Shown here: positions 3,788 through 42,352 of the stretch, piece by piece
Position numbering within the stretch: the stretch's first letter is position 1
Layout of the letters: the number at the start of each line of letters is the position of its first letter
NCBI GenBank assembly: GCA_012295275.1
Contig: CM022674.1
Coordinates: 3,286,001-3,350,000 of the forward strand
From: Chrysomallon squamiferum
Lineage: Eukaryota; Animalia; Mollusca
Reading direction: 5' to 3'
DNA: 64,000 bases
Position numbers and translations under genes: made by a program
Notes under the pieces: model-generated
What the model was told of the DNA's origin: nothing
What the model saw: the letters and a program-made list of their open reading frames with translations, nothing else
The model's database searches: none

Positions 3788-3886
3788 ATGTCGGCGAGAT
3801 GTCGAGCTTGTTCCTGGAGCACCAGCAACACGCTGATTGTCTTCCACAGTGAATTTCGACAACAGAGCAAGCCTCTGTGTTCCAAG
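3788..3886 (+). CDS. TMEM47: Alternative first coding exon A of TMEM47-like gene (MSARCRACSWSTSNTLIVFHSEFRQQSKPLCSK)
   Basis: ATG at 3788, 33 open codons, strong donor AAG|GTAAGG at 3887 in phase 0, matching the phase-0 acceptor at 36680. Peptide shares the SWxxxN motif and C-S-[KQ] end with exons at 14827 and 26351. TATA-like and Inr-like elements lie upstream. Confidence 0.72.
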
Positions 3887-3931
3887 GTAAGGTACTCGAG
3901 TTTTTAAAGCGGTTCATATCATCTGGCTGAG

Positions 3932-4340
3932 CGTTTTTGTTTTCAAGAGCTTGGTTTCGAAATGTTTCTAAAGAGTTTGGTATCAAACGTTTTGTTTTCA
4001 TAGAATGGTACGAAATGTTTCTAAAGAGTTTGGTATCAAACGTTTTGTTTTCAAGAGCTTGGTACGAAATGTTTCGAAAGAGTCTGATATCAAACGTTTT
4101 GTTTTCAAGAGCTTGGTACGAAATGTTTCTAAAGAGTTTGGTGTCAAACGTTTTGTTTTCAAGAGCTTGGTAAGAAATGTTTCTAAAGAGTTTGGTATCA
4201 AACGTTTTGTTTTCAAGAGCTTGGTAAGAAATGTTTCTAAAGAGTTTGGTATCAAACGTTTTGTTTTCAAGAGCTTGGTACGAAATGTTTCTAAAGAGTT
4301 TGGTATCAGACGTTTTGTTTACAGAGCTTGTTTCTAAAGT
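3932..4340. repeat. 54-bp minisatellite, about 7.5 copies
   Basis: Unit cgttttgttttcaagagcttggtacgaaatgtttctaaagagtttggtatcaaa, giving the 18-aa periodic ORFs on both strands. Confidence 0.95.
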
Positions 4341-5002
4341 TTCTAACCTGCCATGTACGTGAGATCAACGAAACATTTGTTTTTAAAGATAGGTACTAGT
4401 GTTTGTAAACAAACAGGTACGTAGAGAGGTGTGTATGAATTGTGAAGCGAAAAAGGGGAACACATAAGAACGTTTCTTTTTTAAATTAGAGTTGATATAC
4501 CTTAAACAAAAGCATCAAAAAGTAATTTGAAAGGTTAGCGATTTTACAAATGACATTTATAACAAACCAATAATAGTGACAGTAGTTGCGGCAGTAGTAA
4601 CAGTAGTAGTAATAATAATAATAATAATAATAATAATAATAATAATAATAATAATAATAATAATAATAATAATAATTTATTTGAAAGGTAACCGAATAAT
4701 GTAAACTCAACAAACTAGACATAATATTTTGACGATACGTGTTAATGTATTCAGCAAATTGAGAAGCAAACAAAAATAAATATTTCTTAATCAACTAAAA
4801 TGTTACCACAAAAATATTATCAAAAATTGTAATCAGAATGTACTAACGCGTAAAATGTTACGTTACGAAGTCGCAACGTAAATGAAAGAGCCAGGAAATA
4901 AAAAAAAAAAATGCTTTGATCATTCAGTGATGTTAGCCAGACAAGTCAGTTTCATGTTAGTCAAAATAAAATGTCATGAAAACTTTGTGAGAATTATTTC
5001 CA

Positions 5003-5079
5003 AACACACACACACACACACACACACACACACACACACACACACACACACACACACACACACACACACACACACACAC
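5003..5079. repeat. (AC)n microsatellite
   Basis: Direct reading. Confidence 0.95.
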
Positions 5080-5537
5080 CGACAGACTAACAGACACACT
5101 GACATACACATACATACTATAATTGTCTCATCTAAGATATACCAAATAACTGACTAACATACATACGTCAAGCAATGAAGAATTTGTATTACCTTTCTCA
5201 AATACAATTGCGCCTATTTCTAATAAAATAATGGGTCTTTATTAAAATACAACAGAACGTTTCAAGCAGTCTTTACCAGCAAACAAATCAAATTACAGGC
5301 TGTAGAAATAATGAAAAAAAAAATCTGTACTGGAAATGATCCCTCAGTTGAGACAGAAAACATAATGTGAACGAATTGCACTAATCTGTAAGGAATGACC
5401 TTTATCAAATTTGTAGTCAAAATTCAGCTCCTTAATGAAATTACCAAAGATTTTTTTTAATATCATTTGAAATTAGAGAACCAAATGTATCTTGAAGCTT
5501 TAAGTATTCTGTTAGAGTTCTGGTTTCGTTTTTAATA

Positions 5538-38745: not shown

Positions 38746-39929
38746 TGCTTTATTACATTAATCAGAATGTCCAGCTCTGCACAGTACAGCCTCTCACTAC
38801 CCACGTTGTAACAGATATCAGTATATTACATTATACAGTATTATATAAACAGATTACTGGCAAATTACTGTCATTACTGTTATTGTTATTGTTATTATTA
38901 TTATTATTGTCATTACTGTTATTATTATTATTGTTATTATTATTATTATTATTATAATATTTTTTTAAATTTAATATTGTTGTTGCTTTTGTTGTTATTG
39001 TTGTTGCTATTATTTACTATTATTATTATTATTATTATTATTATTATTATTATTATTATTATTATTATTATTATTAATATTGTCGTCGTTGTTCTTCTTC
39101 TTGTTTTTTTTTTTAATTTATTTATTATCATCATCATTACTATTATCAAACTGTTTTGTTTCTTCTTATATATATATTTATATCTATCTATCTATCTCTC
39201 TATATATATACACACACACACACACAATAGACAGTCTTATATATATATATATATATATACACACACACACATAATATAATATATATATGTATGTATGTAT
39301 CTATATATATATACACACATAGTATAATATATGTATGTATGTATGTATGTATATGTATGTATGTAATTGGGTATCTAGTACAGTGACCTAATTGTGAAAT
39401 CCATTAGTGTGAACTTGCTAACTTGTCAATATGACAGATACAGACAGCTCTGTGTACATTACTAATGTTGTAATGCACTCGCACACAAACCATTACAAGA
39501 GATCGAGTGCTTTGTAAAGAAGTACCGTAAAAATACTTAATTCAGTCACTGTCATTGTGGCTGGAGGGCATTCAGAGCTGTAAGGAATCTCTGCGTTTTA
39601 TCATGAATAAATTCTATATGGGTGACGTTTCCTTTGCTACACGATTCGATTTTCTTTTTCTTCTATATGATTAAATAAGGAAGCCCGTAATACAAGTAAA
39701 CAAATATATGAATTGATACAAGTAAGACACATATAGGTAGAAATATATATATATAAAAATGCAGTATTAGAATTAACTCGAGATTCAATATTATAAGTAT
39801 TAGATAAAATTTAGAATTACGTTTATAACGAAGAAATTGTCTTGAAAATGCATCATGAGTGCTAGTTTAATATTTAAAATGCATTTCATTTTTATAAAAC
39901 ATTATTTTATCATATTCTTAGAAGAAAGC

Positions 39930-40450
39930 GAGGTTTAGGGTTAGGGTTAAAGTTAAAAGTTAAACATCAGGTTTATGTTTAGAGTTAGCGTTAGCATTAG
40001 GTTAGCGTTATAGTTAACGTTACGGTTAGCGTTAAATAGGTTAGATTTCATTATCTATTCAGCACTAGACTGTTTTCGAATAAAACTTGAAAAATCTTAG
40101 GATAAAATTGAGTGTTGATAGCATTACTGTTAGGGTTACCTGTAAAAATGAACTTCGGAACAACAACAGCGTCAGAATGAAATTTAAAATGCTTTTATTT
40201 GAAAAAAACTGAACTTAGGGATGTTTATGATATGTGTTAGAATGATGTTTAAAATATATTTTATTCCAATAAAACATTGATTTCTCATATTGTTATACGT
40301 AACATTGTGGCTAAGGTTAGAGTTAGGGTTAGGCTGAGGTTAGTGTTAGGTTTAAGATTTGCGTTATGGTTAGGGTTAGGGTTAACAGACAATTTATCAG
40401 ACAAGTAAGATTATAGTTACAGTTAGGGTTACGTTTAGCAGTATAGTTAG
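39930..40450 (+). repeat. Degenerate TTAGGG-like hexamer patches in an intron
   Basis: ggtttagggttagggtt and ttagggttagggtt with variants (ttagcg, ttagag) at about 39930-40045 and 40310-40445. Confidence 0.7.
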
Positions 40451-40728
40451 ACGTGTACAGAACGCACACACGCACAACATATCCCTCTTTCCTTCCATAC
40501 ACTATAAATTAATCATTTATTTAATTAATTAATTAAAGAAATAAGTAAAACAAAAAGAAAGAAAGTAAGAGAAAAAGCTAAATATAAACAAAAAAGAAAA
40601 GAGGGGAAAAAATGCGAAAGAATCTAAATACATTTTAAAACTATAAAATAATTCGAACACTTCTTGCACACTGTCAATGAATTAAATACGACTATGTGAA
40701 GAAATACAATCTTGTTTTGTTTTTTCAG

Positions 40729-40878
40729 CTTGGGTTGAAGCTTGTCGGTCTCTGTGTTTGATATCGCTGTTCAGTGCTCTCATTGCTGTTATCATCGCCT
40801 GCGTGGGTTTGAAAACAGAAAACTATCAGTGGAAGTACCACTACTACAAGTCGTCGATGATCATCATGTTCATAGCAG
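40729..40878 (+). CDS. TMEM47: TMEM47-like shared exon 3: TM2, intracellular loop, start of TM3
   Basis: Acceptor ttttgttttttcag, donor CAG|GTAGAG. 150 nt, phase 1-1. Translates (T)WVEACRSLCLISLFSALIAVIIACVGLKTENYQWKYHYYKSSMIIMFIA. Confidence 0.95.
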
Positions 40879-42122
40879 GTAGAGTATTTCCATCTCGAAC
40901 GTTAGACGCGCGCGTGTGTGTGTGTGTGTGTGTGTGTGTGTGTACGTGCGTATGTGTGTCTTTGTCTTAGTGTGTTTTATACGGCAGTCATTTTTAGACA
41001 ATGTTTATATTGCAAAATACTTGAGAGAGATAGAGTTAAGCATTGCAAAGTTGTCAATTCCTCAGTATGTCATTTATTTTTTTTTTTTTTTTCAACTATG
41101 TATACTGTGTTGAAACTGATTTTCAGAAAATGTTTTTCTGAATATTCAGCTAGGTAAACGTGTGCAAACACGTTCAGATGGGAATTAAAATAAAATGAAA
41201 GTGTTTAGTATTTCCAAAATAATATGATTTAAGACGTGATTCAACATGCAGGATGATGGATAAGTATTATTGTTCACAGAGCTGCACTAAATCAGATTAA
41301 CGAAACTAATATCTGTAGTTATTACCTGTCCTGATATAAAAATAAAATGTAAACCTCTAATCTGGTCATGGATATTTATATAAACTGACCGATTTCCCAT
41401 TCAGCACTGACGCCATATAGCTGTTTATTTCTATCTAATATCATTATTAATATTAATACACACATATATATATATATATATATATTTATACTTTTTCTTC
41501 TGAAAGTATAAAGAGATTAGTTATTTATGATTTGGAATTATATATCACGTTTCCTGATTATACTGGATGTAGCTGTCATTGTGGTTGAACTGATCGATAT
41601 TTTTTAATCCAGTTTCTTGTTAATGAAATAACGTTTTTTTTTTTTTTTTTCTTTTCAAATATTACATTGATTTCAAAGAGGAATAACGTCTGACAGATAA
41701 TGCAGTTCTAACTGTAATAATAATAATAATAATAATACATTGGGTAGACTCATTGGGAATATTCTCAGTCAGTAATGCAGTTGTTTTGCTACAAGTAGGA
41801 TTCTGTTTAAGAAATAAATAAAAAGCATGCAACTGTGGCAAACTTAGTAGCAGTCGTAGTAGTAGTAGTAGTAGTAGTAGTAGTAGTAGTAGTAGTAGTA
41901 GTAGTAGTAGTAGTAGTAGTAGTAGTAGTAGTAGTAGTAGTAGTGATGTTAAAGACAATAATGAAATGACTGCAGTAGTTCTTTCTCGATTTTTATCACT
42001 CGATTTTTATCTTTATTGATTCGTTCCTTAACGCATTCTTCACTGACGTTATATATTCATTCAGTCAATCAGTTTATTCACTAATATATATATATATTTC
42101 TCTCTCTCTCTTATTTTTACAG

Positions 42123-42352
42123 TAATTCTAGAAGTAATAGCCTTAATAATATTTCCTGTCAAGTTCCTGGAGGAGGTGGACGAGAGACCGTACAAGAAAT
42201 GGGAGTTTGGCTGGGCGTACGGAATCGGGTGGGGTTCCGCCCTCTTCATGTTCGGGTGTGCAATATTGCTTCTGTTAGACCGGGACACTGAGGAGGTCGT
42301 GTACAGGGAAAAGACTATATACCAAAGAGAGCCTGAACCCGAGGAGGTTTAG
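42123..42352 (+). CDS. TMEM47: TMEM47-like terminal coding exon 4: end of TM3, ECL2, TM4 and C-tail
   Basis: Acceptor ttatttttacag. Translates (V)ILEVIALIIFPVKFLEEVDERPYKKWEFGWAYGIGWGSALFMFGCAILLLLDRDTEEVVYREKTIYQREPEPEEV*, stop TAG at 42350-42352. FPVKF and FGWAYGIGWG resemble TMEM47/PERP motifs (YPIKF, FNWGYGLAWG) as recalled from the family. Confidence 0.95.

What the first reader, a model, noticed from the sequence alone, without database searches (positions are those of the whole stretch)
3788..42352. Array of homologous alternative first exons feeding one claudin-superfamily (TMEM47-like) constant region
Seen: three ATG-led exons about 11 kb apart all end in phase-0 donors compatible with the shared exon at 36680, and their peptides align. 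A: RACSWSTSNTLIVFHSEFRQQSKPLCSK; B: RQLSWAPSNMMMQFDDQQFEGRLKCSQ; C: RSQSSWSTTNGLLSVDSDETRVKFSQ (W lies 23, 22 and 20 residues before the junction). A and C share TCCTGGAGCACCA (3812-3824, 26387-26399). Predicted proteins are 214, 352 and 215 aa. Known: variable-first-exon/constant-exon organisation occurs in clustered protocadherins and UGT1; TMEM47/PERP/claudins normally have one short cytoplasmic N-terminus. Inference: the first exon and promoter were tandemly duplicated, giving junction-protein isoforms with swappable cytoplasmic N-termini chosen by promoter use. I know of no description of this for the family, but cannot search. More exons may lie upstream of the window.
Basis: partly seen in the sequence, partly recalled or inferred. 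Interest (0 to 1): 0.85.

Follow-up and report, generated by a model that had tools for sequence, protein, structure and literature searches.

The report
Snail junction gene, three duplicated starts
A gene for a cell-junction membrane protein (TMEM47/VAB-9 type), likely from a deep-sea vent snail, has three diverged copies of one short exon lined up before its shared body, each matching an alternative start annotated in abalones, so it likely makes proteins with swappable inner tails, a layout already known from human claudin-18.

Summary
Exons A (3788-3886), B (14827-15339) and C (26351-26452) are ATG-led, end in phase 0 and fit the shared exon at 36680. C uses a GC donor. The shared part is 91% identical to Gigantopelta aegis TMEM47-like.

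The independent test: abalone RefSeq models carry an alternative 33-residue N-terminus at the same junction. It picks out C, A and B as the top 3 of 1,203 candidate exon ends in the window. The exons are therefore homologous and real. Splicing in this species is untested, because no RNA was available.

Claudin-18 has homologous alternative first exons, GCNT2 has three, and TMEM47 models in abalone, octopus, chiton, ribbon worm and mayfly already swap N-termini at this junction. New here: three paralogous tail-only exons, perhaps a decaying fourth, and no standard first exon in the window.

Models of abalone isoforms suggest that the standard tail pairs with the C-tail as a beta-ribbon and the variant tail does not. 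New variant of a known kind; interest 0.4.

The parts
3788..3886 (+). Variable exon A, coding part (33 aa), donor AAG|GTAAGG, phase 0
13359..13456 (+). Possible degenerate fourth copy D: ATG at the same distance from the end as in A and abalone, one frame break, weak donor AAG|GTTATC. Tentative.
   Evidence: best of 152 frame-break candidates; reached by 1, 5 and 8 of 150 local shuffles; found after the fact
14827..15339 (+). Variable exon B, coding part (171 aa): 137-aa acidic then basic/Ser-rich extension plus the shared 34-aa motif; donor CAA|GTATGT, phase 0
   Evidence: no Pfam family, no relative found
26351..26452 (+). Variable exon C, coding part (34 aa), GC donor CAG|GCAAGT, phase 0; TGACGTCA at -154 and a TATA-like stretch at -105
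36680..36845 (+). Constant exon 2: predicted first membrane helix and first outer loop with the W-GLW-C-C motif
38429..38434 (+). 6-nt microexon between a pyrimidine-rich acceptor and AAG|GTAAGT; adds two residues
   Evidence: matches the 2-residue insert of Gigantopelta X1 (SK) and Haliotis isoforms (DK)
40729..40878 (+). Constant exon 3
42123..42352 (+). Constant exon 4, coding part to the stop codon; conserved acidic/tyrosine C-tail

Best explanation
This is a single TMEM47/VAB-9-type claudin-superfamily gene with three homologous N-terminal exons that likely arose by old tandem duplication and are likely spliced one at a time, each from a predicted promoter of its own, onto a shared exon that begins at the first membrane helix. 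The isoforms would share membrane helices, outer loops and C-tail and differ only in the inner N-tail. The standard TMEM47 tail is predicted to pair with the C-tail as a two-stranded beta-ribbon; the variant tail is predicted to be disordered and would leave the C-tail free, while adding a Ser-aromatic-x-x-Ser/Thr-Asn motif behind a basic residue (likely kinase site) and, in A and B, a Cys next to the membrane (likely lipid-anchor site). B adds a 137-residue extension with four [RK][RK]xS sites. Promoter choice would thus tune trafficking or coupling to actin by tissue, not adhesion specificity. Shown: exon sequences, phases, homology. Inferred: splicing, promoters, structure, modification, function.
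For: Constant part 165 of 181 residues identical to G. aegis XP_041378162. H. rufescens RefSeq X1-X4 are two N-termini times presence or absence of the microexon, all swapping at this junction. The abalone variant tail ranks C, A, B top 3 of 1,203 candidates, shuffles 0, 2, 0 of 5,000. Of 234 homologues with an exon-2 part only the 3 abalone variant-type proteins score 33 or more against A/B/C; all others score 16 or less. R, S, N and S are invariant across A, B, C and abalone. All three frames are open and in phase at about 30% identity. C has no pyrimidine-rich acceptor in the 400 nt before its ATG, and B's in-frame acceptors run into a stop at 14803. Abalone standard isoform model: pLDDT 91, strands 4-11 and 182-189; variant model: residues 1-23 under 50, no inner strands. 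Precedent: CLDN18 (PMC11464258, PMC11178514, passages), GCNT2 (PMC1885805, passages).
Against: No junction read or transcript for this species. The closest annotated relative, G. aegis, shows only the standard tail in its 2-member cluster, and no B-like protein was found. Abalones show one variant tail, not three. C needs a GC donor and B's donor is weak. No shared promoter motif or flanking DNA likeness; TGACGTCA occurs 5 times in the window, so the one before C proves little. A and B have acceptor-like sites upstream (3454; 14601, 14690), so they may follow non-coding exons and not be true first exons. The two structure models had unequal alignments (90 and 26 rows), the variant tail was backed by only 3 identical sequences, and they are abalone proteins. 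RNA support behind the RefSeq models was not visible to me.
Confidence: 0.68

Rival explanations
1. The three exons are true duplicates, but only one or two are still used; the rest are relics, as in the birth-and-death pattern of variable-exon clusters.
For: No RNA evidence; GC donor in C, weak donor in B; a possible broken fourth copy suggests turnover; G. aegis models lack these tails.
Against: Each keeps ATG, open frame, phase and motif although flanking DNA has lost all likeness; nucleotide identity in a 54-nt core is only 24-28 of 54; B keeps a 171-codon frame, the longest high-complexity ATG-led frame on the + strand.
Confidence: 0.17
2. A, B and C are coding exons chosen by splicing behind shared or separate non-coding 5' exons, so isoform choice is not simply promoter choice at each exon.
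For: Acceptor-like sites before A and B; promoter-like, CRE-containing stretches at 600-950 and 11300-11800 and several strong donors without a coding frame.
Against: C has no good acceptor within 400 nt and has promoter-like motifs. The protein outcome would be the same.
Confidence: 0.1
3. The peptide likeness is chance or compositional and the real first exon is the standard one upstream of the window.
For: Pairwise identity is only 28-31% over 33 aa; plain tblastn of the abalone tail gives E about 1; the standard exon is missing from the window and every close relative has it.
Against: An outside sequence, the abalone tail, picks exactly these three of 1,203 candidates with ends in register at donors; the standard tail does not single them out (ranks 6, 9 and a tied 1 of 14 at score 7 or less).
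Confidence: 0.04

Closest known systems
Human CLDN18 (exons 1a/1b; CLDN18.1 lung, CLDN18.2 stomach); claudin-10a/10b
   Same: Claudin-superfamily gene with homologous alternative first exons, separate promoters and shared downstream exons (PMC11464258, PMC11178514, PMC9153115; passages). [quoted passage not shown]
   Different: CLDN18 swaps the N-terminal 69 aa between two highly similar exons (these include the first helix and outer loop; recalled). Here three exons about 30% alike swap only the inner tail.
Haliotis TMEM47-like RefSeq isoforms (XP_046375791-795, XP_071110365-366, XP_067658615)
   Same: Same gene, same junction, homologous variant tail, same microexon position.
   Different: One variant tail plus the standard tail in abalone; three variant copies, one greatly extended, and no standard exon within 36.7 kb upstream here.
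C. elegans VAB-9 / vertebrate TMEM47 (TM4SF10) / Drosophila CG6982
   Same: Best hits are named TMEM47(-like). VAB-9 sits at adherens junctions and organises F-actin; TM4SF10 binds ADAP (PMC3879130, PMC5727265; passages).
   Different: The passages seen mention no N-terminal isoforms. Octopus, chiton, ribbon-worm and mayfly models have alternative tails at this junction that are not homologous to A/B/C.
GCNT2, UGT1 and clustered protocadherin variable-first-exon clusters
   Same: Tandem paralogous variable exons in one reading phase ahead of constant exons; GCNT2 also has three (PMC1885805, passages).
   Different: There each exon is large, very similar to its neighbours, codes a recognition domain and, in UGT1, has a conserved promoter motif. 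None of this holds here.

Membership tests
PMP22/EMP/MP20/claudin superfamily (PF00822) | Pfam match and W-GLW-C-C motif in the first outer loop | tested here: met
   Single exons hit PF00822 below cut-off (E 0.003); the 91%-identical relative scores 63.7 bits against a cut-off of 26.7; motif present in exon 2 (motif per PMC3879130).
PMP22/EMP/MP20/claudin superfamily (PF00822) | Four-helix claudin fold | tested here: met
   Model of the abalone orthologue matches claudin-15, claudin-19, MP20 and TARPs, TM about 0.7; the window's own protein was not folded.
TMEM47/VAB-9 clade | Closest relatives are TMEM47-like; conserved acidic/tyrosine C-tail | tested here: met
   by similarity and source names only
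TMEM47/VAB-9 clade | Groups with vertebrate TMEM47 and VAB-9, not PERP, in a tree | not tested
   no tree was built
TMEM47/VAB-9 clade | Standard N-tail ending in RPLK-like motif | tested here: inconclusive
   Absent from the window (best profile score 21 against 41-62 for true members); sequence upstream of the window is not held.
Variable-first-exon / constant-exon genes (CLDN18, GCNT2, UGT1 type) | Tandem paralogous variable exons in one phase before constant exons | tested here: met
Variable-first-exon / constant-exon genes (CLDN18, GCNT2, UGT1 type) | Each variable exon spliced separately to the constant exons | tested here: inconclusive
   No RNA for this species; the homologous abalone exon is annotated so; consecutive in-frame splicing disfavoured.
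Variable-first-exon / constant-exon genes (CLDN18, GCNT2, UGT1 type) | A promoter of its own for each variable exon | not testable with these tools
   Only motif counts; needs CAGE or 5' RACE.
UGT1/protocadherin-type cluster (strict) | Highly similar exons of near-equal length, each coding a recognition domain, with a conserved promoter motif | tested here: not met
   33, 171 and 34 aa, 28-31% identity, no domain, no shared upstream DNA.

The most novel reading that the evidence does not exclude
The exon 1/exon 2 junction of TMEM47/VAB-9 is a protostome-wide switch point that turns on or off a beta-ribbon between the N- and C-tails, and in this snail lineage a kinase-regulated tail exon has been amplified into a birth-and-death array (three working copies, one decaying) that is displacing the otherwise invariant standard tail, giving tissue-specific control of junction-actin coupling.
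Probability: 0.2. Interest if true: 0.62.

Novelty: new variant of a known kind. Interest (0 to 1): 0.4.

Why it matters
The inner tails of TMEM47/VAB-9 are the likely link to actin and junction scaffolds, and the standard N-tail is nearly invariant across protostomes (R14 in 89, P15 in 87, K17 in 88 of 90 aligned proteins). A natural set of tail-swap isoforms in one gene would give a ready test of what that tail does. It also shows that duplicated variable first exons, described mainly in vertebrates, arise in an invertebrate claudin-superfamily gene, and it flags short exons (33 codons, one GC donor) that gene finders miss. The design itself is known, so the gain is for specialists.

Tried and rejected
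RNA: no RNA holder listed for the last exon; one run of unknown kind held 0.67 of the words. Nothing from the 4 runs lay on exon 2. This is no evidence either way; splicing stays open. No whole genome is held, so sequence upstream of the window and the standard exon could not be sought. Metagenome contigs: no relative by protein (53 pattern hits, 0 confirmed) or by DNA pattern (0). Exon B: 0 of 630 candidates among longer proteins, no usable Atlas hit; abalone tail: no usable Atlas hit. An 11-kb duplication unit: rejected, self-comparison found no non-repeat DNA likeness. A 60-codon frame at 11556 as a further copy: rejected (phase-1 donor; rank 23 of 152 with a frame break). Octopus tail ending in C-A-T as a homologue: not supported (scores 13, 10, -11). 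Identity of the variant tail across three abalones is no sign of selection, since their constant parts differ at only 3 of 182 sites. Rfam: 0 matches. Alignment A4 misplaced the short exons and was not used. My first exon-3 boundary was off by one and was corrected. Literature: TMEM47+mollusc 0 papers; TMEM47+first exon 2 listings, neither on this by title or abstract start; TMEM47+VAB-9 4; CG6982+claudin 3; searches listed nothing on TMEM47 N-terminal isoforms. The library lacks most subscription papers; no supplements were opened.
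Full report
Observation. A (3788-3886, 33 aa), B (14827-15339, 171 aa) and C (26351-26452, 34 aa) start with ATG, are whole codons long and end at AAG|GTAAGG, CAA|GTATGT and CAG|GCAAGT. The shared exons are 36680-36845, 40729-40878 and 42123-42352; they give 181 aa without a stop, and proteins of 214, 352 and 215 aa.

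What the gene is. The last exon finds Gigantopelta aegis TMEM47-like at 96% and Haliotis, Patella and Lottia proteins below that (6 hits among 110 candidates). The whole constant part matches G. aegis at 165 of 181 residues, so the source is likely a related vent snail (inference). That relative passes the Pfam PMP22_Claudin cut-off, exon 2 has the W-GLW-C-C motif, and a model of the abalone orthologue matches claudin, MP20 and TARP structures. A 6-nt exon at 38429-38434 adds two residues exactly where G. aegis X1 and two Haliotis species have a two-residue insert.

Are A, B and C homologous and real? Among themselves the likeness is modest: 26, 6 and 14 of 5,000 shuffles reach the local scores. 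The shared 13-mer is unique among GC-rich repeats in the window but lies in the S-W-S-T codons. The strong test came from outside. Haliotis RefSeq models have two N-termini at this junction: the standard one and a 33-residue variant (3 of 8 cluster members; H. rufescens has both, each with and without the microexon). In a junction-anchored alignment (my gap settings, rough recalled donor matrix) the variant scores 37, 34 and 33 against C, A and B. The other 11 of 14 ATG-led upstream candidates score 0 or less and 25 controls 4 or less. With looser rules the three are still ranks 1-3 of 1,203, the next scoring 21. Shuffles: 0, 2 and 0 of 5,000. Of 332 proteins held at that point, 234 had an exon-2 part and an N-terminus; only the three abalone variant proteins resemble A/B/C. 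Plain tblastn gives only E about 1 for these matches, which is why they are easy to miss. Which copy is the abalone orthologue cannot be told; A, B and C share W where abalone has F, a hint of duplication after the split.

What is missing. The standard TMEM47 first exon, nearly invariant in 90 aligned protostome proteins, is not in the window. It probably lies upstream, giving at least four starts, or it may be lost; G. aegis has a somewhat diverged version and no variant tail in its 2-member cluster. Flanks of A, B and C share no DNA, and the window has no non-repeat self-match, so the duplications are old and the even spacing carries no weight. A stretch at 13359-13456 looks like a fourth copy with one frame break and a weak donor; it was best of 152 such candidates and was reached by 1, 5 and 8 of 150 shuffles of three kinds. 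It was found after the fact and is only suggestive.

First exons or internal exons? C has no pyrimidine-rich acceptor in the 400 nt before its ATG. B's in-frame acceptors (14601, 14802) lead into a stop at 14803 and the one at 14813 is out of frame, so A>B>C read-through is unlikely. A and B could still follow non-coding exons. Promoter evidence is thin: C has TGACGTCA at -154 and a TATA-like stretch at -105, but that octamer occurs 5 times in the window. Splicing in this species is untested.

Mechanism (inferred). The junction falls at the start of the first membrane helix, so only the inner N-tail changes. In the abalone standard isoform model (90 rows, pLDDT 91) residues 4-11 and 182-189 form strands; as the only strands on the inner side they must pair with each other (my reading). 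In the variant model (26 rows, pLDDT 78) residues 1-23 are below 50 and no inner strand forms; the shallower alignment weakens the contrast. A, B and abalone have R-x-x-S before the aromatic residue, C has it shifted by one; A, B and abalone have Cys three residues before the junction. Reading these as kinase and acylation sites is recalled motif knowledge, untested. B's extension has 18 acidic residues in its first 70 and four [RK][RK]xS sites later. VAB-9 organises F-actin at adherens junctions and TM4SF10 binds the adaptor ADAP (PMC3879130, PMC5727265; passages), so tail swapping most likely tunes trafficking or actin coupling by tissue. Confidence 0.68 for three used alternative exons; about 0.3 for the ribbon-switch detail.

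Comparison with what is known. [quoted passage not shown] GCNT2 has three variable first exons and UGT1 about a dozen, evolving by birth and death (PMC1885805, passages). Public TMEM47 models of Octopus (three N-termini each in two species), Liolophura, Lineus and Cloeon/Neocloeon swap unrelated tails at the same junction; some other odd N-termini in that list are probably gene-model errors. So the locus works like CLDN18 or GCNT2 but fails the strict UGT1/protocadherin features. My searches (listings and abstract starts) found no paper on TMEM47 N-terminal isoforms or on a mollusc array; the library is incomplete.

Verdict. A real feature, correctly spotted; a new variant of a known kind.

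Noticed in passing
window:38429-38434: 6-nt microexon in the first outer loop region, conserved in position in Gigantopelta and Haliotis models; doubles the possible isoforms.
   Followed up: yes
window:13359-13456: Possible degenerate fourth variable exon with one frame break and a weak donor; could also be an assembly error or chance.
   Followed up: partly
window:11300-11800: Promoter-like stretch (CRE-like, TATA) with a 60-codon ATG frame from 11556 and two donor-like sites; may be a non-coding 5' exon for B. No Pfam match.
   Followed up: partly
window:10143-10800: CpG-rich island with a 171-codon basic ATG frame on the minus strand, broken up by long A runs; only a faint DDE_5 hit (E 0.087).
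   Followed up: partly
window:600-950: GC/CpG-rich stretch with several TGACGT-like and CACGTG motifs; possible enhancer or promoter upstream of A.
   Followed up: no
window:3935-4346 and 38437-38718: Intronic minisatellites of 54 bp (7.7 copies) and 39 bp (7.3 copies), each starting within 50 nt after an exon.
   Followed up: no
proteins P0037-P0129: Many insect and crustacean TMEM47 models carry a conserved acidic extension (F-S/D-E-F-D-S type) ahead of the standard tail, a second route to N-tail variation.
   Followed up: no
window:48200-48500, 56350-56650, 61500-61850, 62350-62600: Further CpG-rich islands downstream of the gene with no assigned feature.
   Followed up: no
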